From an uncultured Bacteriovoracaceae bacterium (GTDB taxonomy: Bacteria > Bdellovibrionota > UBA2394), in contig CAZRLF010000001.1 of NCBI GenBank assembly GCA_964601045.1, forward strand, positions 134,402 to 198,401: 64,000 nucleotides of DNA, written 5' to 3'. Made by a program: the position numbers and the translations under genes. Positions 6,068-21,936 of this stretch are shown here, piece by piece (the first letter of the stretch is position 1; each line of letters begins with the position of its first letter). The notes beneath the pieces are model-generated. The model worked only from the letters and a program-made list of their open reading frames with translations. It was not told the DNA's origin and did no database searches.

Positions 6068-6460
6068 ATGTTCGCAAAAGTTACAGAAGGAATTCGCATC
6101 GAAGTTCAGCCTCTTTATATTCCTGAAGAATCAAACCCGCGCGAACAGAGATTCTTTTTTGCCTATCGCGTAATGATTCAAAATATAGGTAGCGAAAGTG
6201 TGCAGCTTCTGAATCGTCATTGGATTATCCTCGATAATCTCGGCAATTCTGAAGAAGTCAAGGGACCTGGCGTGGTCGGCAAGCAGCCTACTTTGCCGCC
6301 AGGAACAGCATTCGAATATACAAGCTACTGCCCACTTAGAACACCAACAGGAAGCATGCGAGGCACCTACGAATTCATTCGCACAGACGGATCAAAATTC
6401 TTAGCTGAAATTCCTGAATTCGATTTAATCAAACCCGACGCTCGCCCCACTCTACATTAA
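6068..6460 (+). CDS. apaG: ApaG (DUF525) protein
   Basis: MFAKVTEGIRIEVQPLYIPEESNPREQRFFFAYRVMIQNIGSESVQLLNRHWIILDNLGNSEEVKGPGVVGKQPTLPPG matches ApaG across its full length. Confidence 0.85.
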   Translation: MFAKVTEGIRIEVQPLYIPEESNPREQRFFFAYRVMIQNIGSESVQLLNRHWIILDNLGNSEEVKGPGVVGKQPTLPPGTAFEYTSYCPLRTPTGSMRGTYEFIRTDGSKFLAEIPEFDLIKPDARPTLH

Positions 6461-9384
6461 TCGCTTCCGGGTGCTGCATTTTGTTTTTGCCGCTGAACTT
6501 GCTTGGGATAATTCGTATCCAAAAATGTCTGCACTTCACCTTTTACTTTTCCAGGGACAAAACCATCTTGTCTAAATGCGATCTCCCCTTTTTTGTGAAA
6601 GATCATAGTCGTTGGATACTGACTTACTCCATATTGTTTAAGTGTCTCAAGATTTTGACTTCCATCGAGAATAACGACTTTCATTCCGGGATTTTCATTG
6701 GCCAAAGCTTCGACTTCAACTCGCTGACTTTTACAGGGCCCACAGCTTGGATTCATAAACTGAATCAATACAGGTTTACTCGACTGCAAGACTTCTTTCT
6801 TAAAATCAGCCCCTTTAATTTCTCGCACTAGACTTTTGATTAATTGTTCAGGAGCTACATCTGAAGCTTGAGGAGCATCAACGGGCTTAGCCGTATCTGT
6901 ACTTGTACCCTGTGCTGGCTCGCCACCGTTTCCTCGTCGACGTCTGAAGCTTTCAACTCCCGACTTAACTTCATCAGAAGGTCTGCTGGGCAAATCTTTT
7001 CTCGAAACTATCGCGGCTTCAACATCAGCATGAGTAATCGGCTTAAGTTCTCCCTGAGGAACAGGGCCCTTATGATCCGGAAACTTGGTCATATAATCAT
7101 CGATCACTTGGTTTAGTTTATCATTTCCAAGTTGCTGAATGATACTTGCGATATCAGCACCGGTATATCCTTCGAGTTTTTTGGCTAAAGCAAAATAATC
7201 AATTGCTTCGTCTTTTTCGGGCTTAAAGGCATAAGCTTCAAACGCTTTTTGCATCTTCTTCATATTGATTTTAAGAATCGCCTCTCGAGCTTCGAGATCG
7301 GGGTTAGGAATAAAATACCACTGATCAATACGACCAGGACGAATAAGCGCATCGTCTAATAAGTCGGGCCTGTTCGAAGCTACGATAATCACGACATTAT
7401 CGACTCGACCTCCCACACCATCGAGCTCCTGCAAAAACTGGTTAACAATTTCGTCGTCAGATTTATTTCCGAAACCGCCGCGCTGACCACCAATTGAATC
7501 AAATTCGTCTAAGAACACAGTGACGATTCCTTCTTTTGAGGCCGCGACCAAATCCTTTTGAGACTGTTCTCGAATAGCCTTAAATAAACTTTTGACGTTC
7601 TTCGCACCCTGAGACACCCATGTGCTTTTAATATTGGCAGCATTGACATTCATAAACTTACCACCAAGCTCATGCGCAATGGCCTTCGCCATCAAGGTTT
7701 TACCATTACCAGGATAACTATACATACCGATCACTGCACGAGGTGGAACACGATAAGCTTTAGCTGCCTCAGGATTATTTACAGGATTAAAAATTCCTTT
7801 TTTGATAGCGGCTTTTACTTCGTGCATTCCCCCGATATCGTCAAAACCGGTATCAGGAATTCCTTCGACCTCAAACTCGGTCGACTTAGTTCCAAACTCA
7901 CTATCGCCTCGAACGGCTGTTCCACCACCAGTATTGGCGAAGGTCGAGACTTTCATTTGCCTTCCCACCATTTCGAGAAGAGTTTTATCAACTTTGGTAG
8001 GGTTTAAAGTTCGCTCTCTCTGAGAATCAGCAAGCAGAAGTTGTTTCTCGTTAATTTCTTTCTCTAGCATCCTCTTACGAATTGCGAGCTCAGCAACTTT
8101 AGCAAACTGACCTTCATCATAAGAATTTTTTAGTTTCGTAAGCTCTAGATCGATTTCAGAGAGCTTCATATTTAAACCAACAATATCTTGCATCATCCCT
8201 TTTTCTTTAGAAACTTGATTGCTGAGTTGATCCAACTTTCTTAAGACCTGCTCTCGCTCGACTTCCAATTTTTTAAGTTCTTCTTGAGCCTCGGATCGAC
8301 CGCGGATTTCATCTATTCGATCTTCGATTCTCTTAAGATCCCTATTGGTGCGACGAACATCCAGAGGCTTCGCATTTGGATCACTAGCACGTTTGATCTT
8401 AGCCACAGCCATTTGTAAAAGTTGCTCAGTAGCAGTGATGACATTTTGATCTTTAAAAGAAGCTTCAGCAATTCGATGTGCATCTCGAAGTGCTTGTTGA
8501 TCAATAATCAGGCCCGACGACTTTTCAATTGTACTTCTGACTTTGGCAAGAGCATCCAGAACATCGGCTTCGTCTAAAGGCTTAAGCTCTGTTCGATATT
8601 GAAAATGCTTATCGTCAAAAAAATCACTCGAACTAACAAGCTCTTTATTCTCAGCGGTAACCAAAAGTTTTAGATTGCTATTTTCAGTCTCAGCAATCTC
8701 TCTCAGTGCATTCATGACCGCCGTTTTTGCTTCTGTAATAGGAGGGCCTAAAAGCTCATCAATGTTTGGAATATATAAATAGTGAACATCTTTAGAACCT
8801 TTCGAGCGAGCATCTCGAGCATTTTGCATTATTTTAAGAAGCGGACCTTCAGGCTGAACGAGAGTTCCTTTTTCATCCTGCCTCCGAGAAGTCTGCGCCA
8901 TTGAACGCCAATCAATTCGATGAATCTTTACGTTCTTCATCTCTTTAGAGAGCTCCCCCTTCTCACTGAGATCTACAAAGCGATGAACTAGACTGTCTTT
9001 TCCGACATTCTTCTTTCCAACAACGGCGATATTGTGGCCGGCTAATATTCTAGACTCAAGATCTTCAACTTCTTGATCTCGTCCAACACGCTCTTTAACA
9101 GCAATATGGTTAATACCGTCGCTATTGCTTGAAGTTCGAGTAATGGTTCCAGCGAGATGGCGCCCAACGCTTTGAAGCAAATGCCCACAGGCTTCAGCTG
9201 AAGGAGTTTCGGGATTAGTAGGATTGGCCGGCTCAGTGGGCTTTTTACCCCCAAAGCCGAAAAGACCCCGCTTTTCAGTATCTTCGGCAAAAGCAGGCAG
9301 TGCGAGATAGGCTACCAACTGCAATGCTATTAGCCCTACAGCCAAACCACGACCTTCAAAATGTCTTATACGCCTTAAGTTCAT
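6457..9384 (-). CDS. Membrane-anchored double AAA+ protein: signal-anchor, degenerate ClpB-like D1, coiled coil, classic AAA (CDC48/FtsH-type) domain and C-terminal thioredoxin
   Basis: The N-terminus MNLRRIRHFEGRGLAVGLIALQLVAYLALPAFA is a signal or anchor sequence. VGRDQEVEDLESRILAGHNIAVVGKKNVGKDSLVHRFVDL plus ...VHYLYIPNIDELLG follow the Hsp100 D1 layout. A roughly 150-aa coiled coil follows (RIEDRIDEIRGRSEAQEELKKLEVEREQVLRKLDQL...). The classic AAA domain reads YSYPGNGKTLMAKAIAHELGGKFMNV...VTVFLDEFDSIGGQRG...VIIVASNRPDLLDDALIRPGRIDQWYF. The C-terminal thioredoxin LIQFMNPSCGPCKSQ has its CGPC at about 6733-6744. Confidence 0.75.
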   Translation of the reverse strand: MNLRRIRHFEGRGLAVGLIALQLVAYLALPAFAEDTEKRGLFGFGGKKPTEPANPTNPETPSAEACGHLLQSVGRHLAGTITRTSSNSDGINHIAVKERVGRDQEVEDLESRILAGHNIAVVGKKNVGKDSLVHRFVDLSEKGELSKEMKNVKIHRIDWRSMAQTSRRQDEKGTLVQPEGPLLKIMQNARDARSKGSKDVHYLYIPNIDELLGPPITEAKTAVMNALREIAETENSNLKLLVTAENKELVSSSDFFDDKHFQYRTELKPLDEADVLDALAKVRSTIEKSSGLIIDQQALRDAHRIAEASFKDQNVITATEQLLQMAVAKIKRASDPNAKPLDVRRTNRDLKRIEDRIDEIRGRSEAQEELKKLEVEREQVLRKLDQLSNQVSKEKGMMQDIVGLNMKLSEIDLELTKLKNSYDEGQFAKVAELAIRKRMLEKEINEKQLLLADSQRERTLNPTKVDKTLLEMVGRQMKVSTFANTGGGTAVRGDSEFGTKSTEFEVEGIPDTGFDDIGGMHEVKAAIKKGIFNPVNNPEAAKAYRVPPRAVIGMYSYPGNGKTLMAKAIAHELGGKFMNVNAANIKSTWVSQGAKNVKSLFKAIREQSQKDLVAASKEGIVTVFLDEFDSIGGQRGGFGNKSDDEIVNQFLQELDGVGGRVDNVVIIVASNRPDLLDDALIRPGRIDQWYFIPNPDLEAREAILKINMKKMQKAFEAYAFKPEKDEAIDYFALAKKLEGYTGADIASIIQQLGNDKLNQVIDDYMTKFPDHKGPVPQGELKPITHADVEAAIVSRKDLPSRPSDEVKSGVESFRRRRGNGGEPAQGTSTDTAKPVDAPQASDVAPEQLIKSLVREIKGADFKKEVLQSSKPVLIQFMNPSCGPCKSQRVEVEALANENPGMKVVILDGSQNLETLKQYGVSQYPTTMIFHKKGEIAFRQDGFVPGKVKGEVQTFLDTNYPKQVQRQKQNAAPGSD

Positions 9385-10007
9385 TTTTTGTCCTTAGTAC
9401 ACACGCACTTGGCTAATAAAAGAGCAAGTTCTATGCCAGAAAATACCTAAGTATTTGTGGGGGCTTTTGGGTCGATATGCAATTAGTTCATAGAAATTTA
9501 AGTTATTTACTACTGAGACCGCCTCCCTAACTAGGGGGGCCCTAAATCGAACTTTCAAAGAAAGATCTCGCCTCCCTTTTAAACCTTCTACCTGAGACTT
9601 AAGCTGTCCACCCAATTCCACAGAAACTGAGACATCGTTATCCCAAGTGCCTTAATTAAAACTAGACATTTTAGAGGTAAAGACCTCAAAATATTTGATT
9701 TTTAGGTATGGCACGGTCTTTGCACTAACCACAGAATGTGAGAGCCGAATTATTTTAGTTGAAGAAAGGCTCTCTCTTGACAGGATAAGGACGAGGATGC
9801 TTTATTCGGTGCGTCATGCCTTAGTTGGTAGAGGTTGAAAGGCTTGAAGCGGAGATAATCGAGAGAAAAACAGGGGTTGAGATACACGGTGAGAAGGCAC
9901 TTGAGTTTTATAAACTCTTGAGTTAAAGGCCTACCACCTGGTAACGGTTTTTTTTAAAGATTTTGGGTACATGGATCTAGAACACAAAAAGGACAGGAGA
10001 ACAAAAT

Positions 10008-11094: not shown

Positions 11095-14000
11095 TTGGTT
11101 AACTGGAGATTTAAATTCTTTCAGTTTTCGATGATTTTTACCCTTTTGGTAAAGGGTGAGTCCTTACGTGCGTCTAACGATGCCTGCGAGCCTAAAAGTG
11201 CCATTCAAGAGCTTCTGCAGTCAGCTCAGAATCCAGTTAATTCCAATCAAGACATCCCAACTGACCCATCGCCTTCAATTCGTTCTAATGGAAATGCGCC
11301 TCAGAATCCTCCCCCGGCGGTTGAATTGCCAGTTCCTGCAACCACCGACGGAAAAGTTGCAGCGTTTTTTCAAGCTTGGCGAGAGAAAGTGCAAACCAAA
11401 GTTGAAACTCCTGAAAGCAAAAAGCTAAAAGATAAAATTCTTTCTGAGTACGGAGTAAAACCGATCTCCGAATATTTGGTATCAAAGTCGGTCAGCGCTG
11501 CGCTTAAATTTTATTTAAGATGGGAAAATCCTACTTACCGTGATGCAAAATCTACTCCTGCACATTTTGCCGATATTCGAGTGGGAGACGATCTTAAATT
11601 AGCCCAGATTTTTGGCGTTTCTTCGGCTGAAAATCGCGGCATTCAAGATATGATTTTTAATGATCTGCTTAAAACCCCAGAAGGCAAAAAAAAGATTATC
11701 GCCGTTGGAGATATTTTAACTCTTTTCTTTGATACCCATTTAACGGACAACTTACAACTTAACCCCGAGCAGAGAGAGATCCTCTTGAGCTCGATGACCG
11801 AAATCAAATTAAATTCTAACGGAAATCTTGAAACCACCGCTGATTTTCCTCGTCTTGATCAGATTGAAAAATTTAATCAAGCTTACGTAGAATCATTTAA
11901 TAATCTTTCTGCAAATCTCGTGGATGAAAATGGAGATCGTCCTGATAACACAGTCGTACGAAATCTTCTAAAAGAAGCATTCTCTAAGCGCCTTAAAAAA
12001 ATTCAAAAAGATGCTAAGGGAGCTCTGACCTTTGATTTAGTTTTAAATGCCATTCAAATTACTCCGGCAGATCTAGAAGAATCAAAATCAACAGCCACGC
12101 AATCAAGTGAATTTGACAAAATGCTTCTCATGCACGCTCACCTTTCTCAAACTGAAAATTATAATAAATCTAGCGCGTATCGACTATTCTCAAGCGCAGC
12201 AGACCACAGCGCCGGAAAAATCCAAGCTTATAAAGATCTCTATAATCCGCCCGCAAGTGAACTTGCAAAAAAAACTGAAGATTCAGAAATTAAAAATCAA
12301 GAAAGTAAAATTCTTTCTGCAACTGTCGGCAATACAACCATGTTTGAAGGCACGCCCCTTATTAATTTTGGCGCTCTTCCCATCTCACAACGAGATCGAG
12401 AAATTCTGCAAAAACAAATTAAAAACGATATAAAGGGCTCATTCTCTCTAAGCTCAAACCAATCAGATCCTGGAGCAGACGCATTTAAAGACGCTCGCTA
12501 TGCCGACCCAAGACAATTTTTGCCGAAAGGTAAAAACAAAAAAGGCGAACTTGAAGCGCCTTATTACGAAAATCCTTACCGCATTCAACTGCAAGCTCAC
12601 GCCTCACCTGCTCCTCCAGCCTCTTATATTGCCGGCGGCTGGAGGATTCCACTTGAGTCAGGCGGAGTTCGCATATTTACCGATCAAGAGTTTGAAACAT
12701 ATAAAACGGCCGCCATGAATGCTGAAGTTGAAAAACGTATTGAGGCCATGCTGAAAAACGGAGTCGAAATTGATTTGCGGACTCTTCTTTCAAATGCCGA
12801 TCGTTACGACACTCAAGGTTTTTTTACCGGCGGTAAAATTGAACCCAAAACTGGCAAATGGAGAGATCCTTTTTTAAGACGTCATCGAGATAAATCGGGA
12901 GGAGAAATTGATTTTAAAGGTGAAATCAAAAATAGATACGATCTATCTCTTCAAATTTTAAGGTTCGCGCTTAATAAACCAGATTTAAAATCTATTCCTA
13001 TTACGTATTCAGACCTTCTTTTTTGGCCTGAAGAAGAGCTTACTGCATTACTCACAATTAAATCTCTCACTCGTGATACTTCTCTTTTAGAAGTCGATGC
13101 CTCTGGGCGGCTTAAAAGATTTGACAGCAAACAACTTGCCACTAAAGCATCTGATCTTTTGGGATGGAAACTAGATGTTGAGAAGAAACTAGGATTTTTT
13201 CCTGATATTCATTTTTCAAATGAAAAAGAGCTGCTCTCGGCCGTTGAGAAAATCAATGCCGCACTTAAAGATAAAGAATCATTAGCTCCCGGAATTCCTC
13301 TTGTTCATCTTGGATGCCTAGAAAAAGATGGCAAACTCGTTGGAGGTTTTCTCCCCGAAGGAGAAGTGAAACCCTTAAGCCTTACTGATTTCAGAAAGGC
13401 TTATAGAGAAAAAAAAGAAGAGGTTAAAGCTCCTTTATTTAAATCAGCCAATGAGTTGGTCGAAAAAATAGACTCTTGCATGGCTGAAGTTAAAAAAGAG
13501 AGGAATGACTTAATTAAGTCAACGACCTTAAGCCTTCAGACATTCGGTAAGAAGCTCTTTTCAAATCGGCTTAAAGCCTATATTCGATATCGATTTCAAA
13601 TTGAAGATTATCTCGATCAAAAAGCAGGCAAAGCAGTTAAAACGGGAGATAGACTTAAGGCATTTGAAGCAAAATTAAAAGCCAACGAGGCTCAAAATCT
13701 TTCTCAAGAACAAAACGAAACATTTCTTTTGAATGAATGGAACTCAATTACTGCAGAGAGGTTTAAAGAAATAGCTCTATTTAATCGCCAACTGATCGAT
13801 AGTCCCGATGCTGACCTTAAAGAGTCCGAACTTAAAGAACTCGCAAAAAGCGCTCAAAAAACTTTTGACTCGTCAGATATTCAATTTTTGCGACAAAATC
13901 GCCTAAGCATATTAGCCAATTACATTATTGAATCGCCCCAGCTCCCTACAGCTCAAAAAATTGAAAAACTCGAGGCCTATCTTAGATTAAGATACGCTGC

Positions 14001-17000
14001 TGAAGATTATCTCGACCAAAAAGAAGGTAAAAAAATATCTTTAGGAGCACGTGCTCGTGCTTTGGATGCTGCCCTTGCTCGAGATGATTTTAAATCAAAA
14101 TCCACATCTGAAACTATTTTGAAAGCATTGGAGTTTGAATGGAAGTCTTTCCAAGTAGAGCGAATGGCTGAAGTTTCAGATCTCATATCGCAAGTGGCGG
14201 TTAAGCCTCAAAACACAATCACAGACTCGGCAGAGCAAACTGTGGCTGTGACTCTATCAAAAGCCATGAATCAAGATGAACTGCTTGATTTAAATTCAGA
14301 TCATTTAAATCTTCTTCTCAATGATCAGTATAATTCTGCTGAAAAAATCAAACTCATTAATCTCTCTCATTTCTCTTTGAGTGAGCTAGATGCTCTTCAC
14401 TTTTTATCAACTCGATATGGTTGGAATGAGGTCATATTTGCCGCAGAATCAACAGATGGCATGGGACTTCGCCTGTTTGATTGGCTTAATAAAGCGGCAT
14501 CAAATAAAATTGATTCGGGAAAAGTTCAAACACTTTCTATTTTAGATTCTTATGTCCTTTTGAACGCTTCTCATGAACTTGCTGTTGCAAGTGGAATTAT
14601 TCCTACTCTTTGGGGAGATAACTGGAAAGCCACACTAGAAAATATAAACAAAGCTCCACTAACAGGTGTCAATTTAAGGCAGATTGGTAATTACAATTCA
14701 ATTCCGATCATTGAAACACTTAGACTTCATCAAGATGAAGCTTCTCGCTACTTTACATATGATAATATCATTAAATCATTTCGCCCTACTCGGGAGGTTA
14801 AGCCCGTATTTGATCTTGAGAAAGACTCTCTTGAGTCATTAGCGCGTTGGAACATTCCTACTGATCCCAAACATTTACAAAAATTAACTGAAATGGCTGC
14901 AGTTTTTAAATGGGACATGATCAAAGAAGCCTATCTTAAAAACATGAAGGACGAGAAGAAGTCTCAAAAGGAACAGGATGATAAGAGAAAAGAAATCGAA
15001 GAATATAAAAATGGAGTTCATCCAGACCTCGTTAAGTTCTATCGACAAAATCAAAATTTAAAAAATTATCATACTTTAGCGGAGAGAATGAAAATTACTC
15101 CTGAAAAGGATAACACCTTAGCTCGAAAATCATTTTCGGGTCGCTCTGTTTTTGAAACTAATTCTCAAGTAAGTCAGTCACTACAGGCCGGACTTGTTTC
15201 TTTAGACGTCTTTTTAGATGACTTTTTTGCTGACTCAAAAAATATTTTGACTAAAGAAATCAAAGAACGACTCGAGTCGAGCACTCCTGGATCAGCCGAT
15301 ATCACTGCCCTCAATATGATTGGGTTTGATACCAATACAAAAAGCTTTCAAAGTGCTATTGCTCAAATCAAAGCAGAGAACAAACCTCTCGCCGAAGAAC
15401 TTCTTCAACAAAGTCAGCTTTTCTTAAAAGCAGGTCGAGAGCTTCAAAGCAGTTTTGAACAAGGTGGCCTTTCTCGAGACGACTTTAAAAAGATTCTTTA
15501 TGCTGCCAATCAAAGAGAAGAAATCATGCTCGAAATTATCGGCAAAGAGAAAAATAATATTAAAGAAGGCAGCAGCGTGAGTAGCACAGCTTCAGAAAAG
15601 ATTCTCTCAGCGGCCAAAGTTCAACTCCCCTCATCAAAAGCGGGCCGTGCCAGAGCTGCTAAGCAGCTAGATAGTTTAAGAGCCTTGATGAGTTCATCTC
15701 AGGTTTTATTCGCTAACTTTCATGAGTCACTGAGTACAATGGTGGCCCGTTATTCGATTCCACTTCTTTTTGAAGAAATTAGATTAAACGCTGAAAAGAG
15801 CCCCCTCGGCGAAGAGATTCTCTCTCAACCTCAATTTCAGCAGAACTTAATCAGCTCAGGGCTGGAGAGGGCAAGCGAACTTTCTAATTTGGGTAGCCTT
15901 ATAGATTTAAATTCTGTCTCCGCTGCATTGGCAGATGCCACTCTCAATGAAGGCTTTAAGGTCGGTGAATTTGAATCTGAAGTTCGCAAGATGTTTTCTT
16001 ATCACTACGATCTGAACCGCCTCCTCTACGGAAAATCCTTTGATCCTGTGGGCTTTAATTTTTATAAGGGACTCGAAGGCAACGCACGAACTTCTGGCAG
16101 TGATACAGATCATATCGATAAAATTTTGATCGCAAAAATTAATGAGATTCGAAAGCGCCAGCACGACTCAGTTGATCGAATTTCTAACCTTTTGACGGCT
16201 AAACTTAAAACTCTTCCTGAAACTCATGCCTTAGGTAAGTTTTTGCAAGTTCTTGCCGAAGGAGTTGCAGTTAAAAAAGCAAAAAATGCTAAAGGTGAAC
16301 CCACATTCGAAATTTCATCGGCTCTTAAACTAAATACGGAGCGCAATGAAAAGGATCAAATAATCTATAAAGGAACACTCTCTGATCTCGTTTCTTTCGC
16401 AAAATTCACTGAAAGACCATTGAGCGCTGACCCAGATTTTTTACCGATTGGAGAACGAGATCAATCTTATGCTGTGAGATACGATAAATTCGAAGAACAA
16501 TATAAAAATATATTTAAGAACAATCCTAAATTTGCTGATTCTTACGAAACGCGTCGTAATCAAGGTAAGCTTCAAACCAGTCTTGATCGCCTTGGTCAGA
16601 AACGAAGCATTTCGATTCCACTTAAGAATAGACTTGAAGGGCTAAAAGACTTTCTCAGTGCCGCAAGAGCTCAACCCCAGTTTAATACCCAAGAAGTTCA
16701 AATGCTTTTTGAGAAAATGGAGTCTGAAAATAAAGTCAACCTCAACAATTTCTTTCTATCGATTTACTTTGCTCTTCAAACTCAATTGGGCAAGCAAATG
16801 CCTGATAGCATATGGGCTGATAAAGAAGCCGCTGCTCAAGAGGCCATTAATAAATTACTTCAAAAAAGTATTGAAACATTTCCAGCTGATATTCAGTCGA
16901 ATGCTCAGATTCAGGAAATCCTTAAGGCGATAAAAGAAGCCAAAGTTTCGTCATTTGTAAAATTAGATTCTAAAGCCACAGCGGAGCAGAAAGCCGCCGC

Positions 17001-20000
17001 TGACCCAATGAACTGGCCTTCGTTTAAAAAAGCCTTTCCTCAAGGCCAAGGCGACGAGGTTAAATCGATTTATCAAGAGCGTGATGACTATTTTAAAAAT
17101 GAAGAAAATCAAATTGGCAATCTTATTGAAGATGGAATTGATCGCCTACTGATCGATCCCAATGGTAAAAAATTTAATATCGCTGGACGATTTGCACCTT
17201 ATGCTTATCGATTTCAAGATAAAGATTTAAACGCTTCCGTGAAAAATATTCACTCAAGCTTAATGACCTTCATCTCTAAGCAGGAAGATTCATTTTACAA
17301 TATAGCTCAGCGCTCGGATAGTCTTACGAAGATCACCGAAGATCTCTATGGCTATCGATACCCTATGCTTAAAGCGAGAATCAGCGAAGGCGTTGAAAAG
17401 TTTGAAAAAGCAATTCATCACCTACTTGAGACTGAAAACATCTCTCGTCTTCGATTGAGAGACCTTGATGGCGCTCGTTTAAATACCGAGCAAATGGAGA
17501 GCCTACTTTCGTGTACCTACACTGAAGCCTCAAAAAAAATTAGTGAAAAAATAACATTCGATACGGCGTTTGAGATGGCACTGAACCCTGCCGAGATTTC
17601 AAATAGCTGTCTTAAAGATTTTAAAGAAAAAGATGACCTCTTAAAGAGTGAGGCTTTTAAAGAACAATTGAAGATGATTTCAAGTCGTGCCAGCGTAATG
17701 ACTGACGTGCTTAATCAGGCTGGTGCTTTGGCCATGCAAATTTCACCAGAGAATTTAAGAAAAACAAAAATTCTTCCACGAATTATTTTAAACCTTAAGG
17801 ATTTTTCTCGCGTTGATAATCAACTCGGCATCTCAATGTCTAAATTAATTGAAGGCCTCAATATTCTTAATAAAGAAGAACTCACCGTTCAATACGAAGA
17901 CCTTAAAGCCAAACGAGAAACCCGCCAAAGACACGATAGCTCTTGGTATCAGACTATTCCAGGAGACGTAGGGTCTATGATTGTTCATAGCGGACAAAGT
18001 CTATGGGAAGAAACCTATCGCCTTGGCATCGAAAATCTCGCCTTTAACGCGGCATGGGCAATGACTGGCTGGGATGGTAAAGAAAAATTTGATTCGCTCC
18101 AAAAGTTCTTCGGTCAATATTCAGCTTCGCATTTTACTCCCGAAAGAATTCAGAACCTTGCTGAGAAAAAATCTCATCGCATTCCTTTGATTGGCTTAGA
18201 TGTGAATGTCTACTCAGCTCAAGATGTAGGTGATGGAGTTGGACTTGCTCTTACTTTGATGACCTTTGGTGCCGGTAAAGCTGTGACTACTCTTGCTCGC
18301 GAAACAGCGCTTGAATCGCTTGCGACTAAAGTGTTTAAAGACTCGATTGCCGAAAAAGTTCTAGTTCAAACAGCTTCTGGCTTCTCAGCCGCCACTGAAG
18401 GCGGCATCACTGCTGCAAAAACATTACTCCGTCGCCCAACAACTTTGAGCGTTCAAGAAGCGGCAATTCAGGCCTATGAAAAGTCGATTCAGCAATTGTC
18501 AAAAGGGTCGATCTGGCAGAAGGAAATTCGCCTGATGGGCCAAGCTCCTGCGAAGAGCAGTATTGCAAAAACGATAAAGGCTTTGGGCGATGAGACCGCT
18601 CGAATTCCAGCAGGCACTCAGACCTTTAAACAAACGATGGCGGCTAATGCAAGAGCAGCAAAACAAATTGCGACTGCGTTTGGAACTAGAATTGGACTTG
18701 ATTCGGCTTGGCTTGCCGCCGGTGGCGTGATCTCTTTACTTGCCACCTATCAAAATTTAGGCGGAGAAAATTCAGCCTCTATGCTGGGTCAAGGCACCTG
18801 GGAAAACATGAAGTTTCTCACGGCCTTTATTTTGACCATGAGCTTAACTCATAAGATGCCGTGGGTGAATAGAACTCTCAATGCAGCTTTAATGAGTTCT
18901 ATCTTTAATGATTGGGCTAAGAATGGAGTGATATATTTTGATACAATGGGCGAATCGCGTCGCTATACCGCCTATCTCAAAGCCGATGGCACCTTTGATC
19001 AAATGGCACTTCGTAAAAATCCCGATGCAGATGCTATTTTTAAAGAATACCAAGATGATACGCAGGCCAAAGCTAAGTTTATTTCTGCCTCGTTTCTCGT
19101 TGCTCTCATTGGTATTGGACCTAAAATTGGTCAGTTTGCTGATCGAACCAAAGCCAAAGGAATGGAGTTAAGTGAAAACACCGATCTTAATTCAGGTCTT
19201 ATTTCAACGCTTGGAGGAGCTTACGGCAGCCGTCCCGATCGGTTGTATGACTATCTTGTTCAATTTAGAACCAAGAGATTACTAGAAAAAGAAGTTCAGA
19301 CCGCTAGAGAAAATAACGCAAGTCCTCGCCCAGAAGCTCTAATTAAAAAAGACGCTGAAGCAGAAATTCAAAAACAATTTTGGTATGTCTATCAGGCAGC
19401 ATTTCCGGAAGCTCGAGTTACCTCAATGGTCGCTCTTTGGAAGCTTTCGGGCCAATACTCTGAAGGAATGCGTAATATCGCCCTTAAAAATCTAAAAGAA
19501 AATTTTAATAAGGATTTTCATGCCGATGAAGTTGTCGATGGCCTCCCTGGTTTGCGCACTTCTTATGGAAAAGAACGCAAGCTTACCTGGAAAGAAGTGC
19601 AAGAAAAATTCAATAAAGCTTGGGATGAAGGCTTGAGACAAGGCGATGAATTTTTGGCTCGTCAGATTAGTGAGATGACGGGTGGTGAATTATTGGGAGA
19701 GAAACTTAAAATCTTTGCCGCTCTTAATCAGAAACTGGATGAAGTAGAAGTTGGCAAGGAAACTCGAAGTCTAAATGAGGTTCTTAACGATGTTCTCGAT
19801 TCATTTGGTGGAGTGGCCACTTGGAAGACCGATGCAGGTCAATTATTCCTCCATCGAATTATAATCCCCAGAATGATTGCGGCTAAAAATAGAGTTGAAT
19901 TAGGAGTGCTCTTCGATGGTGCTCCTAATCTTTTAGTCCCAGATTCTCAAAAGAATCCTCGATTCTCAGCCGATATGTTTGCCAAACTTTTAAATGAGAA

Positions 20001-21936
20001 AATTTATGAAGCAGGTACTCCTGCTGTCTTTCTTTCATATCCTGCAGAAGCTGGGGGTGTAGCCAAAATTTCTTATACGACTCGCCAAGGAAGTATTGAA
20101 ATCCTTACCGATGCTCAAGGCCAGAGATTCCTTAAGCTGCCCGAATCCGATAAGCCTATTTTAATTCCTGAACATATTCAGATTGTTCCTCTTAATTCTG
20201 GCCGCCTTAAATTAATTTCAGAAAAAAAATCTGAAGAAAAAGAAATTTCATCAAATGGCCATGCTGTTACAGCTGAACTTGCTGCCTTTGACTCGGCATT
20301 TAAAGATCAAACAACAGCCCCTCTTAGCTTGATGCAGAATCTTCCTAAACATGCCGAGTCATACCCCACTCGTGTGGTCGAATTTAAACTTCGCGAAGGT
20401 CTTAAGAAAGAAGACTCAAGCATTGCCAGTATCAAGCGAAAATTGGGGCTGCAAAAAGAAAAGCGAGCCGCGATTGTTGTCGATCTCAATTCTAATATTG
20501 AACAAGCTTTTATCGGAAATAATACCGTGCTGATTCGATACAAAGGTAAAAAACCGGTAAATTTTTTAATGCCTGATCCTATTTTGGAACAAAGTGGTCT
20601 AATTCAAGAGAGGTGGAAGATTGAATCTATCGCGAATGATGGCCTTACAATTCGTGATCAATACCATCAACGCATTAAGATTGATTTCGCCAATGATAAA
20701 GTAGAAGTCTTTAAAGAGGATTCTAGAACTGGAGAAATGAATAAAATTAAACAGTATGAGCAAAACGGCAAAGATATGACCATCCAGCAATTTAAAGATA
20801 TGATGGAGAACTTTCCTGGCCTTCTACCTACCGAGATTATGATCGGTCTCAATCATATGAATTTTAACTTGGGTGGCTCTACACTTACAGTTGCTTCAAA
20901 AGTGGAAATCGCGAAAGAAATGCAAGAAAAAGAGCTGATAGATTCGCTTGCTGATCTTAATCTCGGCAGTATTCCTCGCGATCGCCTCACACCCCAAACC
21001 ATTCAAAAGCAGGCCAATACACGAATTGAACAGATTGGACCTGAGAAAAGCCGAGAAGAAATTGAAAGACACCGAGGACCTGAATTGGCCTTAATTAAGG
21101 TGCCTCATGATTTAATGTCTGATGGCCAGCTCAGTAAACTCAGTAAACACCAAATGTCTCGCTTTATTGATCAATCAAAAATTGAAAAACTTGAATCGAA
21201 AATGGGAGCTCTGGATGGACTTTTGATTCAAAAATTTGAAGTCATATTTGGTAAACCTGAATCGGAATGGACTCCTGCTCAAAAGCTTCAGGCTAAGAAA
21301 ACATTCTATCTCTCTCGTCTTAAACCTGAGCAATATCGAGAAATTCTTACCGAAGATGAAATAGCCTTTATCTTCAGAATGACAAATATCGAGAATAGAA
21401 TTCGCTCACATGAAACTCGGGCCTTAAGACTTCTTGCATCTACATTGGTCGATAAAGCTGAAACAACGCTTAGTCTCACCGGAAAGCGAGTTCATCCTGA
21501 AGTCGATGCCAAGGCCAACGATTTGATTGAACAAGCCAAGATGGATTTTGTAAAATCCGCGCTTGAGGGAAATCGAGAAAGCTTACGGCTTCTCGAACGA
21601 GCGATTAGCCGGGAAGAACTCGTAGGGCAAATTGATGTAAGTAAACTTTCACAAGAACAAAAAATTTACTTAGCTCAAGATAAAATCCCGACGAGTGTTT
21701 GGGAAAAGGCAGAAGGTAAAATGGATCGAATACCTCCCGAGCATATACAGGCTATTACAGAAGCAGATATTCGTCAGGGAGCGTCGAAAGACACTATTGA
21801 TTATCGAATGCTCGTAGGCGCCATTGTTAAACCTGAAAAAGTTGTTTCAATGTTGACCGGAAAACGCCTTGAGGAAGTTCCGAATCTGAAATCACAGATC
21901 CAAAGTTTTGAAAAAGCAAAAGATACTCTGAAGTAA
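11095..21936 (+). CDS. Giant (3613 aa) K/E-rich, mostly alpha-helical protein with a weak N-terminal signal-like segment, internal repeats and a central Gly/Ala-rich hydrophobic domain; putative secreted toxin or effector
   Basis: One uninterrupted 10.8-kb ORF. The SD GGAGGA at 11085-11090 precedes a TTG start at 11095; ATG 11131 is an alternative. No recognisable catalytic motif. Internal repeats include KAYIRYRFQIEDYLDQKAGK versus EAYLRLRYAAEDYLDQKEGK. The hydrophobic, glycine-rich central region spans about 18.2-19.2 kb (...GVGLALTLMTFGAGKAVTTLARETALESLA...AAKQIATAFGTRIGLDSAWLAAGGVISLLATYQNLGG...). Confidence 0.85.
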   Translation: MVNWRFKFFQFSMIFTLLVKGESLRASNDACEPKSAIQELLQSAQNPVNSNQDIPTDPSPSIRSNGNAPQNPPPAVELPVPATTDGKVAAFFQAWREKVQTKVETPESKKLKDKILSEYGVKPISEYLVSKSVSAALKFYLRWENPTYRDAKSTPAHFADIRVGDDLKLAQIFGVSSAENRGIQDMIFNDLLKTPEGKKKIIAVGDILTLFFDTHLTDNLQLNPEQREILLSSMTEIKLNSNGNLETTADFPRLDQIEKFNQAYVESFNNLSANLVDENGDRPDNTVVRNLLKEAFSKRLKKIQKDAKGALTFDLVLNAIQITPADLEESKSTATQSSEFDKMLLMHAHLSQTENYNKSSAYRLFSSAADHSAGKIQAYKDLYNPPASELAKKTEDSEIKNQESKILSATVGNTTMFEGTPLINFGALPISQRDREILQKQIKNDIKGSFSLSSNQSDPGADAFKDARYADPRQFLPKGKNKKGELEAPYYENPYRIQLQAHASPAPPASYIAGGWRIPLESGGVRIFTDQEFETYKTAAMNAEVEKRIEAMLKNGVEIDLRTLLSNADRYDTQGFFTGGKIEPKTGKWRDPFLRRHRDKSGGEIDFKGEIKNRYDLSLQILRFALNKPDLKSIPITYSDLLFWPEEELTALLTIKSLTRDTSLLEVDASGRLKRFDSKQLATKASDLLGWKLDVEKKLGFFPDIHFSNEKELLSAVEKINAALKDKESLAPGIPLVHLGCLEKDGKLVGGFLPEGEVKPLSLTDFRKAYREKKEEVKAPLFKSANELVEKIDSCMAEVKKERNDLIKSTTLSLQTFGKKLFSNRLKAYIRYRFQIEDYLDQKAGKAVKTGDRLKAFEAKLKANEAQNLSQEQNETFLLNEWNSITAERFKEIALFNRQLIDSPDADLKESELKELAKSAQKTFDSSDIQFLRQNRLSILANYIIESPQLPTAQKIEKLEAYLRLRYAAEDYLDQKEGKKISLGARARALDAALARDDFKSKSTSETILKALEFEWKSFQVERMAEVSDLISQVAVKPQNTITDSAEQTVAVTLSKAMNQDELLDLNSDHLNLLLNDQYNSAEKIKLINLSHFSLSELDALHFLSTRYGWNEVIFAAESTDGMGLRLFDWLNKAASNKIDSGKVQTLSILDSYVLLNASHELAVASGIIPTLWGDNWKATLENINKAPLTGVNLRQIGNYNSIPIIETLRLHQDEASRYFTYDNIIKSFRPTREVKPVFDLEKDSLESLARWNIPTDPKHLQKLTEMAAVFKWDMIKEAYLKNMKDEKKSQKEQDDKRKEIEEYKNGVHPDLVKFYRQNQNLKNYHTLAERMKITPEKDNTLARKSFSGRSVFETNSQVSQSLQAGLVSLDVFLDDFFADSKNILTKEIKERLESSTPGSADITALNMIGFDTNTKSFQSAIAQIKAENKPLAEELLQQSQLFLKAGRELQSSFEQGGLSRDDFKKILYAANQREEIMLEIIGKEKNNIKEGSSVSSTASEKILSAAKVQLPSSKAGRARAAKQLDSLRALMSSSQVLFANFHESLSTMVARYSIPLLFEEIRLNAEKSPLGEEILSQPQFQQNLISSGLERASELSNLGSLIDLNSVSAALADATLNEGFKVGEFESEVRKMFSYHYDLNRLLYGKSFDPVGFNFYKGLEGNARTSGSDTDHIDKILIAKINEIRKRQHDSVDRISNLLTAKLKTLPETHALGKFLQVLAEGVAVKKAKNAKGEPTFEISSALKLNTERNEKDQIIYKGTLSDLVSFAKFTERPLSADPDFLPIGERDQSYAVRYDKFEEQYKNIFKNNPKFADSYETRRNQGKLQTSLDRLGQKRSISIPLKNRLEGLKDFLSAARAQPQFNTQEVQMLFEKMESENKVNLNNFFLSIYFALQTQLGKQMPDSIWADKEAAAQEAINKLLQKSIETFPADIQSNAQIQEILKAIKEAKVSSFVKLDSKATAEQKAAADPMNWPSFKKAFPQGQGDEVKSIYQERDDYFKNEENQIGNLIEDGIDRLLIDPNGKKFNIAGRFAPYAYRFQDKDLNASVKNIHSSLMTFISKQEDSFYNIAQRSDSLTKITEDLYGYRYPMLKARISEGVEKFEKAIHHLLETENISRLRLRDLDGARLNTEQMESLLSCTYTEASKKISEKITFDTAFEMALNPAEISNSCLKDFKEKDDLLKSEAFKEQLKMISSRASVMTDVLNQAGALAMQISPENLRKTKILPRIILNLKDFSRVDNQLGISMSKLIEGLNILNKEELTVQYEDLKAKRETRQRHDSSWYQTIPGDVGSMIVHSGQSLWEETYRLGIENLAFNAAWAMTGWDGKEKFDSLQKFFGQYSASHFTPERIQNLAEKKSHRIPLIGLDVNVYSAQDVGDGVGLALTLMTFGAGKAVTTLARETALESLATKVFKDSIAEKVLVQTASGFSAATEGGITAAKTLLRRPTTLSVQEAAIQAYEKSIQQLSKGSIWQKEIRLMGQAPAKSSIAKTIKALGDETARIPAGTQTFKQTMAANARAAKQIATAFGTRIGLDSAWLAAGGVISLLATYQNLGGENSASMLGQGTWENMKFLTAFILTMSLTHKMPWVNRTLNAALMSSIFNDWAKNGVIYFDTMGESRRYTAYLKADGTFDQMALRKNPDADAIFKEYQDDTQAKAKFISASFLVALIGIGPKIGQFADRTKAKGMELSENTDLNSGLISTLGGAYGSRPDRLYDYLVQFRTKRLLEKEVQTARENNASPRPEALIKKDAEAEIQKQFWYVYQAAFPEARVTSMVALWKLSGQYSEGMRNIALKNLKENFNKDFHADEVVDGLPGLRTSYGKERKLTWKEVQEKFNKAWDEGLRQGDEFLARQISEMTGGELLGEKLKIFAALNQKLDEVEVGKETRSLNEVLNDVLDSFGGVATWKTDAGQLFLHRIIIPRMIAAKNRVELGVLFDGAPNLLVPDSQKNPRFSADMFAKLLNEKIYEAGTPAVFLSYPAEAGGVAKISYTTRQGSIEILTDAQGQRFLKLPESDKPILIPEHIQIVPLNSGRLKLISEKKSEEKEISSNGHAVTAELAAFDSAFKDQTTAPLSLMQNLPKHAESYPTRVVEFKLREGLKKEDSSIASIKRKLGLQKEKRAAIVVDLNSNIEQAFIGNNTVLIRYKGKKPVNFLMPDPILEQSGLIQERWKIESIANDGLTIRDQYHQRIKIDFANDKVEVFKEDSRTGEMNKIKQYEQNGKDMTIQQFKDMMENFPGLLPTEIMIGLNHMNFNLGGSTLTVASKVEIAKEMQEKELIDSLADLNLGSIPRDRLTPQTIQKQANTRIEQIGPEKSREEIERHRGPELALIKVPHDLMSDGQLSKLSKHQMSRFIDQSKIEKLESKMGALDGLLIQKFEVIFGKPESEWTPAQKLQAKKTFYLSRLKPEQYREILTEDEIAFIFRMTNIENRIRSHETRALRLLASTLVDKAETTLSLTGKRVHPEVDAKANDLIEQAKMDFVKSALEGNRESLRLLERAISREELVGQIDVSKLSQEQKIYLAQDKIPTSVWEKAEGKMDRIPPEHIQAITEADIRQGASKDTIDYRMLVGAIVKPEKVVSMLTGKRLEEVPNLKSQIQSFEKAKDTLK
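13573..14034 (+). repeat. Internal tandem-type repeat inside the giant gene (about 133-aa period)
   Basis: gaagattatctcgatcaaaaag (13603-13624) and gaagattatctcgaccaaaaag (14012-14033) differ at one position. The flanking protein segments align (LKAYIRYRFQIEDYLDQKAGKAVKTGDRLKAFEAKLKA versus LEAYLRLRYAAEDYLDQKEGKKISLGARARALDAALAR). Confidence 0.5.

What the first reader, a model, noticed from the sequence alone, without database searches (positions are those of the whole stretch)
6457..9384. Unusual fusion of a signal-anchor, a degenerate ClpB-like D1, a coiled coil, a classic AAA domain and a thioredoxin
The N-terminal half follows the Hsp100 D1 layout but has a non-canonical Walker A (GKKNVGKD) and a Walker-B-like IPNIDEL. 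A ClpB-like coiled-coil middle region follows. The second ATPase module is of the classic CDC48/FtsH type (GNGKT ... DEFD ... second region of homology ASNRPDLLDDALIRPGRID). The protein ends in a thioredoxin fold with an intact CGPC (6733-6744). It begins with a cleavable-looking signal or type-II anchor sequence. An ATP-driven unfoldase covalently linked to a disulfide reductase suggests coupled unfolding and reduction of disulfide-bonded substrates at the membrane. I do not recognise this combination as a described family.
Basis: seen in the sequence. Interest (0 to 1): 0.7.

Follow-up and report, generated by a model that had tools for sequence, protein, structure and literature searches.

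The report
Exported chimeric AAA+ unfoldase fused to thioredoxin
This is a real, intact gene for a very rare two-ring ATP-driven protein-unfolding machine that carries a secretion signal and a tethered disulfide-reducing thioredoxin, a one-polypeptide layout resembling the malaria parasite's HSP101 plus TRX2 export motor, and only one distant relative turned up among billions of public proteins.

Summary
ORF 6457-9384 (-) is an uninterrupted 975-aa gene with a Shine-Dalgarno site. It contains:
- a Sec-type signal peptide (1-33, LPAFA|ED);
- an Hsp100/ClpB-type NBD1 (99-345) that has lost its catalytic residues;
- a ClpB-type M-domain coiled coil (346-476);
- a classic Cdc48-D2-like AAA module with all catalytic residues (505-765);
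- a flexible linker and a TrxA-type thioredoxin with CGPC (850-958).

An exhaustive HMMER scan of 1.84 billion representatives found one relative, P0075. It comes from a related uncultured organism (TopA 71% identical). P0075 has the same signal peptide, D1, M and D2 layout but no thioredoxin.

The family is therefore an undescribed chimera: an Hsp100 front ring, a classic AAA motor ring in place of the Hsp100 D2, and no Clp N-domain.

Best explanation, inferred and not shown: an exported, D2-driven unfoldase whose tethered thioredoxin reduces disulfides in its substrates. It would act where ATP is available outside the producer's cytoplasm, for example in a prey or host cell. This is analogous to PTEX HSP101 plus TRX2. 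"At the membrane" is not supported. Localisation and activity are untested.

The parts
6457..9384 (-). Complete ORF, 975 aa plus stop
   Evidence: the identical protein P0001 is in the NCBI-derived collection on a 201.7-kb contig
9391..9395 (-). Shine-Dalgarno AAGGA, 6 nt before the ATG
   Evidence: an in-frame TAA lies 4 codons upstream, so the first ATG is the earliest possible start
9286..9384 (-). Residues 1-33: Sec-type signal peptide. The n-region is MNLRRIRHFEGRG, the h-region is 14-29, and the c-region is LPAFA|ED
   Evidence: It is the only hydrophobic segment. The cleavage motif matches other signal peptides in the window (xFA|). The homolog has QNATA|TS. This rests on heuristics; no SignalP was available
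9091..9285 (-). Residues 34-98: low-complexity P/T/G/N-rich linker containing Cys66, the only Cys conserved with the homolog. It replaces the Clp N-domain
   Evidence: pLDDT below 45; no Clp_N hit
8350..9090 (-). Residues 99-345: Hsp100/ClpB-type NBD1 (D1), catalytically degenerate
   Evidence: profile versus PDB; four-way alignment
8995..9018 (-). Residues 123-130: D1 P-loop GKKNVGKD, with the Walker A Thr/Ser replaced by Asp
   Evidence: the homolog has GSRLGGKT
8752..8781 (-). Residues 202-211: YLYIPNIDEL. The Walker B position is P206-N207 (lost); the homolog has IYIDDINSL
7957..8349 (-). Residues 346-476: ClpB-type middle (M) domain coiled coil, with long helices at 340-399, 408-421 and 424-456 and a motif-2-like YDEGQFAKVAEL
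   Evidence: a weak NCBIfam ClpB hit, 270-475 matched to 333-539
7873..7956 (-). Residues 477-504: disordered Gly/Thr-rich D1-D2 linker
   Evidence: pLDDT about 30-39; poorly conserved
7090..7872 (-). Residues 505-765: classic-clade AAA module plus lid (D2), most similar to Cdc48/p97 D2
   Evidence: pLDDT 85-93
7696..7719 (-). Residues 556-563: D2 Walker A SYPGNGKT. The first Gly is Ser here; the homolog has GPPGNGKT
7609..7629 (-). Residues 586-592: D2 pore loop 1, KSTWVSQ. Trp589 is invariant with the homolog
7501..7524 (-). Residues 621-628: D2 Walker B, VTVFLDEF (D626, E627)
7324..7380 (-). Residues 669-687: second region of homology, ASNRPDLLDDALIRPGRID, with sensor-1 N671 and Arg fingers R682 and R685
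6931..7089 (-). Residues 766-818: helical C-terminal extension of D2. It is conserved with the homolog and ends in ESFRRRRG
   Evidence: 30% identity
6838..6930 (-). Residues 819-849: disordered tether between the ATPase and the thioredoxin. The homolog's stop codon aligns within this stretch
6511..6837 (-). Residues 850-958: TrxA-type thioredoxin domain
   Evidence: [quoted passage not shown]
6733..6744 (-). CGPC active site (C881, C884). The preceding residue is Ser, not Trp. The cis-Pro is kept (YPT)

Best explanation
The gene encodes a Sec-exported, two-tier AAA+ protein unfoldase with a tethered thioredoxin. SHOWN: the domain order is signal peptide, short linker, Hsp100-type NBD1 with a ClpB-type M-domain, classic Cdc48-D2-like AAA, flexible tether, TrxA-type CGPC domain. 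D1 has lost its Walker A Thr, Walker B Asp-Glu, Arg finger and pore-loop Tyr. D2 keeps its Walker A Lys-Thr, Walker B Asp-Glu, sensor-1 Asn, both Arg fingers and the pore-loop Trp, all invariant with a homolog that is only 25% identical. INFERRED: after signal-peptide cleavage the protein forms a hexamer. The degenerate D1/M ring would serve as scaffold and regulatory tier. The D2 ring would hydrolyse ATP and thread polypeptides through the axial pore. The thioredoxin sits on a disordered tether of about 30 residues at the D2 face. There it would reduce disulfide bonds that otherwise stall unfolding or hold substrates together. The periplasm lacks ATP (established knowledge), yet the D2 catalytic residues are under selection. 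The site of action is therefore most likely another ATP-containing compartment, such as the interior of a prey or host cell. This would make it a one-polypeptide functional analogue of Plasmodium PTEX's secreted HSP101 plus accessory TRX2.
For: The ORF and its start are intact. AAA and Trx domains score above the Pfam thresholds. D2 is closest to Cdc48/p97 D2. D1 and the M-domain match Hsp100. The D1 catalytic residues are lost and the D2 residues are invariant. There is a single N-terminal hydrophobic segment with positive charge on its N side and an AxA site. The homolog P0075 has an independent textbook signal peptide, and both genes have a Shine-Dalgarno site before the ATG. Cys content outside CGPC is 1 in 940 residues. 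This fits the signal-peptide-bearing ORFs of the window (0.25%) rather than the cytoplasmic-type ORFs (0.96%), with a likelihood ratio of about 210 for this protein and about 45 for P0075. The protein is 25% identical between two organisms whose TopA is 71% identical, which fits a fast-evolving secreted protein. The PTEX precedent is a signal-peptide-bearing ClpB-like HSP101 with TRX2, which is proposed to remove disulfide blocks to unfolding (PMC7355975).
Against: No biochemical or localisation data exist. The signal peptide was judged by heuristics only, and its h-region of about 20 residues is long enough to be a membrane anchor. No bacterial Sec-exported AAA+ unfoldase is known, and the ATP and reductant supply is unexplained. 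The thioredoxin lacks the buried Asp26 equivalent (Gln) and the Trp before CGPC (Ser). It also scores below the TrxA equivalog cutoff, 43.5 against 96.8 bits. The only homolog lacks Trx, so reduction is not intrinsic to the family. The D2 Walker A starts with Ser instead of Gly. The predator or host-associated lifestyle is only suggested: the best TopA hits are split between Bdellovibrionota and cyanobacteria at 58% identity or less. AlphaFold confidence for D1, M and Trx is low.
Confidence: 0.42

Rival explanations
1. The protein is a membrane-anchored, cytoplasm-facing machine. The N-terminal hydrophobic segment would be an uncleaved anchor. The ATPase and Trx would sit on the cytoplasmic face of the inner membrane, extracting, unfolding and reducing membrane or aggregated proteins in the manner of FtsH, Msp1 or Cdc48.
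For: ATP and the thioredoxin-reductase system are cytoplasmic (established knowledge). The h-region is about 20 residues with Kyte-Doolittle 2.14, which is long enough for a transmembrane helix. The Trx is of the cytoplasmic TrxA type rather than the DsbA, TlpA or DsbE type. Every known bacterial AAA+ unfoldase works in the cytoplasm.
Against: The charge distribution is wrong for this topology. Four Arg residues precede the segment and an acidic EDTE follows it, which predicts N-in and C-out. Both homologs have SPase I-type AxA sites preceded by a helix breaker or a polar c-region. The Cys content resembles that of exported proteins. There is no second transmembrane segment to return the chain to the cytoplasm.
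Confidence: 0.25
2. The thioredoxin domain is not a substrate reductase. It would instead be a redox sensor or switch, or a substrate or partner docking module, that gates the ATPase. One example would be a mixed disulfide with the conserved Cys66.
For: The Trx deviates from the canonical protein (Asp26 to Gln, WCGPC to SCGPC). The only other Cys in the protein, C66, is conserved in the homolog. The homolog works without Trx, so the domain is accessory. The C-terminal tether places Trx at the D2 exit face rather than the D1 entry face (inference from Hsp100 and Cdc48 threading polarity).
Against: The intact CGPC, the cis-Pro and the best matches to bona fide reductase thioredoxins favour catalytic competence. 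C66 is also conserved in the Trx-less homolog, so it does not exist for Trx.
Confidence: 0.15
3. The fusion is an artefact or a decaying gene. It would be produced by an assembly or sequencing error that joins an AAA gene to a downstream trx gene, or the locus would be a pseudogenised relic.
For: The homolog's stop codon aligns inside the linker just before the Trx. The protein is a singleton cluster seen on one contig. D1 is degenerate.
Against: The frame is continuous with no stop. No Shine-Dalgarno site or plausible start precedes the Trx domain. The 975-codon ORF is uninterrupted and the D2 and Trx catalytic residues are intact. The D1 degeneration follows a pattern typical of pseudo-ATPase rings rather than random decay.
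Confidence: 0.05
4. The protein is an anti-phage defence ATPase of the Iet or TRIP13 type, carrying an effector domain.
For: PADLOC IetA and TRIP13 models and NCBIfam IteA hit the D2 region.
Against: The hits cover only the generic AAA core. They fall far below the family threshold (63 against 510 bits) and are weaker than the Cdc48, PAN and FtsH hits. There is no IetS-like protease or other defence gene nearby. A signal peptide is not expected for a defence ATPase.
Confidence: 0.03

Closest known systems
ClpB/Hsp104/HSP101 (class I Hsp100 disaggregases and translocases)
   Same: The N-terminal ATPase module aligns with Hsp100 NBD1 from the 'GRDxEV' helix through the small subdomain. It continues into a full-length ClpB-type M-domain coiled coil. 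The overall plan is two-tiered.
   Different: There is no Clp N-domain. The second ring is a classic PF00004 AAA rather than the Hsp100 D2 (AAA_2 plus ClpB_D2-small). The NBD1 catalytic residues and pore-loop Tyr are lost. Identity to HSP101 or ClpB NBD1 is only 19-24%, whereas those two are 46% identical to each other. The family therefore lies outside canonical Hsp100s and is not specifically related to HSP101.
Cdc48/p97/VAT (type II classic AAA unfoldases)
   Same: D2 is most similar to Cdc48/p97 D2 (133 bits, about 35% identity). This includes the SRH, the Arg fingers, the aromatic pore loop and the C-terminal 'xxSxxE..F..RRG' tail. Foldseek's top hits are p97 and Cdc48.
   Different: There is no CDC48_N double-psi barrel domain. 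D1 is Hsp100-like rather than Cdc48 D1. The TIGR01243 score is 173 against a cutoff of 803. This protein also has a signal peptide and a Trx.
Plasmodium PTEX (HSP101 with accessory thioredoxin TRX2)
   Same: Both combine a signal-peptide-bearing Hsp100-type unfoldase working outside the producer's cytoplasm with a CxxC thioredoxin. TRX2 is proposed to remove disulfide blocks to unfolding (PMC7355975). HSP101 is the top PDB hit for the D1/M profile.
   Different: The resemblance is of function and architecture only. Here the two activities are in one polypeptide and D2 belongs to a different clade. No EXP2 or PTEX150 counterparts were identified. The organism is a bacterium, and the site of action is unknown.
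FtsH / Msp1 (membrane-anchored classic AAA)
   Same: Both have an N-terminal hydrophobic segment followed by a classic AAA module. The FtsH profile matches D2.
   Different: There is no protease domain and no second transmembrane segment. The predicted topology places the ATPase outside rather than inside.
Thioredoxin TrxA
   Same: CGPC, the cis-Pro and the fold order are present. The best matches are classical bacterial thioredoxins.
   Different: It is fused to an ATPase. It has SCGPC instead of WCGPC and Gln in place of Asp26. It scores below the TrxA equivalog cutoff.

Membership tests
Hsp100/Clp class I (ClpB, Hsp104, HSP101, ClpA/C) | NBD1 of the Hsp100 type | tested here: met
   The two-sequence profile hits HSP101 NBD1 at E=2.6e-12 to 1e-13, and ClpB, ClpE and ClpC1 at 1e-4 to 2e-2
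Hsp100/Clp class I (ClpB, Hsp104, HSP101, ClpA/C) | Coiled-coil M-domain inserted after the NBD1 small subdomain (ClpB/Hsp104 subtype) | tested here: met
   The alignment runs collinearly into HSP101 residues 416-511 and TtClpB residues 395-493. AlphaFold2 predicts long helices at 340-456
Hsp100/Clp class I (ClpB, Hsp104, HSP101, ClpA/C) | Clp N-terminal repeat domain | tested here: not met
   No Clp_N hit. Residues 34-98 are a low-complexity linker
Hsp100/Clp class I (ClpB, Hsp104, HSP101, ClpA/C) | NBD2 of the HCLR type (AAA_2 plus ClpB_D2-small) | tested here: not met
   The second module matches PF00004/AAA_lid_3 and Cdc48, PAN and FtsH. There is no AAA_2 hit, and TIGR03346 ClpB scores 11 bits against a cutoff of 1232
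Hsp100/Clp class I (ClpB, Hsp104, HSP101, ClpA/C) | Catalytically competent NBD1 (GKT, hhhhDE, Arg finger, pore-loop Tyr) | tested here: not met
   GK-D, P-N, DKHF and no Tyr
Cdc48/p97/VAT | N-terminal double-psi barrel plus beta-clam domain | tested here: not met
   No CDC48_N or CDC48_2 hit
Cdc48/p97/VAT | Two tandem classic AAA modules scoring above the family threshold | tested here: not met
   Only one PF00004 module is found. TIGR01243 scores 172.8 bits against a cutoff of 802.65
Classic AAA clade (PF00004) | Walker A/B, sensor-1 Asn, SRH with two Arg, alpha-helical lid | tested here: met
   PF00004 at E=1.4e-31. K562/T563, D626/E627, N671 and R682/R685 are invariant with the homolog. 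The first Walker A Gly is Ser in this protein
Thioredoxin (TrxA-type) | Trx fold with a CxxC active site and a cis-Pro loop | tested here: met
   PF00085 scores 53.9 bits against a cutoff of 23.5. PDB thioredoxins match at E=1.8e-15. CGPC is at 881-884 and YPT is retained. The 3D models are of low confidence
Thioredoxin (TrxA-type) | Equivalog-level match to TrxA, including WCGPC and the buried Asp | tested here: not met
   TIGR01068 scores 43.5 bits against a cutoff of 96.8. The site reads SCGPC and Gln replaces Asp26
Thioredoxin (TrxA-type) | Disulfide reductase activity and a reductant source | not testable with these tools
   This needs insulin or DTNB assays and identification of the electron donor
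PTEX-like translocon | An extracytoplasmic Hsp100 motor with a signal peptide | tested here: inconclusive
   Signal-peptide features are present in both homologs but were judged heuristically. Localisation has not been measured
PTEX-like translocon | A membrane pore (EXP2-like) and adaptor (PTEX150-like) partners | not tested
   No conserved neighbours are shared between the window and L001 apart from topA-xerC. No EXP2 or PTEX150 comparison was run
Sec/SPase I-exported proteins | A positively charged n-region, a hydrophobic h-region, and small residues at -3 and -1 | tested here: met
   The sequences are MNLRRIRHFEGRG / LAVGLIALQLVAYLA / LPAFA|ED and, in P0075, MGVFMR / FWTCFSCLLIGCLAL / SQNATA|TS. 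This is a manual rule check, not a trained predictor

The most novel reading that the evidence does not exclude
This would be the first bacterial Sec-exported AAA+ unfoldase. It would be an ATP-driven protein-unfolding and disulfide-reducing machine released from the cell to work inside a prey or host compartment, either to dismantle disulfide-stabilised proteins or to drive protein translocation there. It would be a convergent, single-chain bacterial counterpart of the Plasmodium PTEX HSP101-TRX2 module. It is built from an otherwise unknown chimera of an Hsp100 front ring and a Cdc48-type motor ring.
Probability: 0.3. Interest if true: 0.85.

Novelty: new variant of a known kind. Interest (0 to 1): 0.66.

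Why it matters
Bacterial AAA+ unfoldases are thought to work only in the cytoplasm, because the periplasm has no ATP. A double-ring AAA+ with a conserved secretion signal and an intact motor ring challenges that view, or points to a secreted effector that uses another cell's ATP. The architecture has an Hsp100 NBD1 and M-domain grafted onto a classic Cdc48-type D2, with a tethered thioredoxin. It is a natural experiment in AAA+ ring swapping and in coupling mechanical unfolding to disulfide reduction. That coupling has so far only been proposed for the malaria PTEX translocon. The protein is a single polypeptide, so it could provide a tractable system for testing the idea in vitro.

Tried and rejected
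1. Word-indexed searches with the N-terminal 504 aa and with the two-sequence D1 alignment returned nothing, not even the query's own entry. Coiled-coil and low-complexity words probably saturated the 8000-candidate filter. These nulls are uninformative, so I relied on the exhaustive HMMER scan.
2. A GTDB genome scan with the N-terminal half found nothing. Two JGI metagenome scans, one with the D1/M alignment and one with the full-length alignment, found only unrelated AAA-only loci. No third family member was found.
TopA placed the organism only roughly.
4. The full-length AlphaFold2 model is confident only for D2. The single-sequence Trx model has pLDDT 46, and its Foldseek hits are thioredoxins but weak. 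Structure therefore neither confirms nor refutes the D1, M and Trx folds, and sequence profiles carry that evidence.
5. A specific kinship with Plasmodium HSP101 was rejected. BLASTP identities to HSP101 and to ClpB are similar at 19-24%, and the score advantage for HSP101 is small.
6. A defence-system reading (IetA/TRIP13) was rejected as generic AAA similarity.
7. A Tat signal was considered because of the 'RR' at residues 4-5. It was rejected because no RRxFLK-like motif adjoins the h-region.
8. A lipobox (LIG|C) is present in P0075's signal peptide but absent from this protein, so it is not a family feature.
9. No DsbD, CcdA, TrxB or secretion-system genes were found in the window.
10. Rfam found nothing in the window.

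Full report
OBSERVATION. The window holds an uninterrupted ORF of 975 codons on the minus strand, from the ATG at 9384 to the stop at 6457. AAGGA lies 6 nt upstream of the ATG. An in-frame TAA lies four codons upstream, so this ATG is the earliest possible start. The identical protein, P0001, exists once in the public collection, from an NCBI record on a 201.7-kb contig.

DOMAINS CONFIRMED BY PROFILES. Pfam finds a classic AAA domain at 554-693 (E=1.4e-31), with its lid, and a thioredoxin at 855-941 (E=1.9e-14, 53.9 bits against a cutoff of 23.5). NCBIfam and PDB searches place the ATPase nearest Cdc48/p97 D2 (133 bits, about 35% identity), then PAN and FtsH. It falls far below any equivalog threshold. 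The Trx region matches classical bacterial thioredoxins best (E=1.8e-15). It retains CGPC and the cis-Pro but has SCGPC instead of WCGPC and Gln in place of the buried Asp.

THE N-TERMINAL HALF. Single-sequence libraries see nothing significant in residues 1-500. An exhaustive HMMER scan with residues 61-345 against 1.84 billion representatives returned only the protein itself and one other protein, P0075 (E=1e-5). P0075 is 750 aa and comes from an ENA metagenome contig, L001. It is collinear with residues 100-818 at 25% identity (BLASTP E=1e-40). A two-sequence profile of the D1 region hits NBD1 of Plasmodium HSP101 (E=2.6e-12) and ClpB, ClpE and ClpC1 D1 (3e-4 to 2e-2). When the profile is extended through the coiled coil, the only PDB hits are HSP101 (E=1e-13, residues 209-511) and T. 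thermophilus ClpB (8.8e-5; residues 172-493). Both alignments run into the M-domain. The higher score for HSP101 is not a specific relationship. Both family members are 19-24% identical to either HSP101 or ClpB, whereas those two are 46% identical to each other.

CATALYTIC STATUS OF THE TWO RINGS. The evidence is a four-way alignment and per-residue comparison.
- In D1 of this protein the Walker A Thr is Asp (GKKNVGKD) and the Walker B Asp-Glu is Pro-Asn.
- The ERRF Arg finger of D1 is DKHF, and the pore-loop Tyr is absent.
- P0075 keeps GKT, one acidic pair (DD) and one Arg, but it also lacks the pore-loop Tyr.
- The 'DE' of IPNIDEL is offset by three residues and is not conserved.
- In D2, K562/T563, D626/E627, N671, R682/R685 and the pore-loop W589 are invariant between the two proteins despite 33% identity across the module.
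- One deviation in D2 is Ser for the first Walker A Gly in this protein; P0075 has Gly.

D2 is therefore the only plausible motor. D1/M is probably a scaffold or regulatory tier. AlphaFold2 models D2 confidently (pLDDT 85-93). It models D1, M and Trx with the expected secondary-structure order but at low confidence, because the alignment there is two sequences deep or absent. Foldseek returns p97/Cdc48 for the whole chain and weak thioredoxin hits for the Trx model.

WHAT IT IS NOT. There is no Clp N-domain, no Hsp100 D2 (AAA_2 plus ClpB_D2-small), no Cdc48 N-domain and no protease domain. It is therefore neither an Hsp100 nor a Cdc48 family member. It is a chimera with an Hsp100 front ring and M-domain joined to a classic-clade motor ring. 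The PADLOC IetA and TRIP13 hits reflect generic AAA similarity only.

THE N-TERMINUS AND LOCALISATION. There is exactly one hydrophobic segment, residues 13-33 (Kyte-Doolittle 2.14). Four Arg residues precede it and LPAFA|EDTE follows. P0075 independently has MGVFMR-FWTCFSCLLIGCLAL-SQNATA|TS after its own Shine-Dalgarno site and ATG. Other signal-peptide-bearing ORFs in the window end the same way, with xFA| or xxA|. Outside CGPC the mature protein has one Cys in 940 residues, and P0075 has one in 723. In this window, signal-peptide-bearing ORFs average 0.25% Cys and cytoplasmic-type ORFs 0.96%. That gives crude likelihood ratios of about 210 and about 45 for the exported class. These are heuristics, since no trained predictor was available, but they agree with each other. 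They point to a cleaved Sec signal peptide rather than a cytoplasm-facing anchor. This creates a paradox. The periplasm lacks ATP (established knowledge), yet the D2 catalytic residues are conserved.

ORGANISM AND CONTEXT. TopA is at most 58% identical to any GTDB species representative. Bdellovibrionota and Oligoflexia MAGs and cyanobacteria are interleaved at the top of the hit list. The TopA on contig L001 is 71% identical. The topA-xerC pair is conserved on both contigs, and the AAA gene lies nearby in both. The two AAA proteins are therefore probably orthologs in one poorly sampled lineage. They evolve far faster than housekeeping genes (25% against 71% identity). Trx was either gained in this lineage or lost in the other; P0075's stop codon aligns within the tether. 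The junction DNA shows no stop and no Shine-Dalgarno site or start remnant. No conserved partner gene was found. No DsbD, CcdA, TrxB or secretion-system gene lies in the window. The window is rich in large signal-peptide-bearing orphan ORFs, including one of 3613 aa transcribed divergently from the AAA-Trx gene.

MECHANISM, INFERRED. The most economical model is an exported hexameric unfoldase. D2 would thread polypeptides. The Trx sits on a disordered tether of about 30 residues at the D2 face, and it would reduce disulfides that impede unfolding or hold clients together. The protein would act where ATP and reductant are available outside the producer's cytoplasm, most plausibly inside a prey or host cell. 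The closest functional precedent is PTEX. There, the signal-peptide-bearing ClpB-like HSP101 unfolds cargo in the parasitophorous vacuole, and the accessory thioredoxin TRX2 is proposed to relieve disulfide blocks (PMC7355975).

The rivals are these:
- a cytoplasm-facing, membrane-anchored extraction machine, which is favoured by energetics but disfavoured by charge topology, the cleavage motifs and Cys content;
- Trx acting as a redox switch or docking module rather than a reductase;
- an assembly artefact;
- a phage-defence ATPase.

NOVELTY. Literature searches found no bacterial signal-peptide-bearing Hsp100 or AAA protein and no AAA-thioredoxin fusion of this kind. Sequence searches found one relative. 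All the parts are known folds, so I rate this a new variant of a known kind. It has a new ring combination, a secretion signal and, in this member, a tethered thioredoxin. Function and localisation remain untested.

Noticed in passing
window 10008-30144, plus 227-1609 and 60845-63463: There is a cluster of large ORFs with signal-peptide-like N-termini and no Pfam or NCBIfam match: 273, 3613, 631, 218, 1367 and 453 aa, plus 460 and 872 aa elsewhere. All are Cys-poor (0.25% against 0.96% in cytoplasmic-type ORFs). The roughly 20-kb block lies between the AAA-Trx gene and topA-xerC. On the related contig L001 only one TPR gene separates the AAA homolog from topA. The block therefore looks like a lineage-specific expansion of secreted orphan proteins.
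   Followed up: partly
window 11095-21936 (+): A 3613-aa ORF with a TTG start and a signal-peptide-like N-terminus has no family hit. It is transcribed divergently from the AAA-Trx gene across a 620-bp intergenic region. A functional link is possible, for example as a client or co-secreted protein, but it is not conserved in L001.
   Followed up: partly
window 40326-45641 (+): A 1771-aa mega-sensor combines Ser/Thr kinase, AAA_16 (STAND-like), TPR, GAF, PAS, HisKA and HATPase_c domains.
   Followed up: no
window 46165-47811 (+) and 35399-36577 (+): A 548-aa DnaK-like protein matches only positions 3-509 of 625 in the DnaK profile, so it lacks the C-terminal lid, and it has a basic N-terminal extension. 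A J-domain plus TPR protein lies 10 kb away. This may be a specialised Hsp70/J pair. No link to the M-domain-bearing AAA protein was established.
   Followed up: no
window 6457-6460: The convergent apaG (6068-6460, +) overlaps the 3' end of the AAA-Trx ORF by 4 nt. No terminator-like site lies between them.
   Followed up: no
L001 555-640 (P0075 N-terminus): P0075's signal peptide contains a lipobox-like LIG|C (Cys18) in addition to the QNATA|TS SPase I site. The homolog might therefore be a lipoprotein. The window protein has no Cys in its signal peptide.
   Followed up: partly
window 9187-9189 (Cys66) / P0075 Cys33: A single Cys in the post-signal linker is the only Cys conserved between the two homologs. 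In P0075 it is the only Cys of the mature protein. Its role is unexplained; intersubunit disulfide, a redox switch or an attachment site are possibilities.
   Followed up: no
tool behaviour: Word-indexed protein searches with the N-terminal half did not recover even the query's own database entry, although the exhaustive HMMER scan did. Null results from that tool are unreliable for coiled-coil-rich queries.
   Followed up: yes
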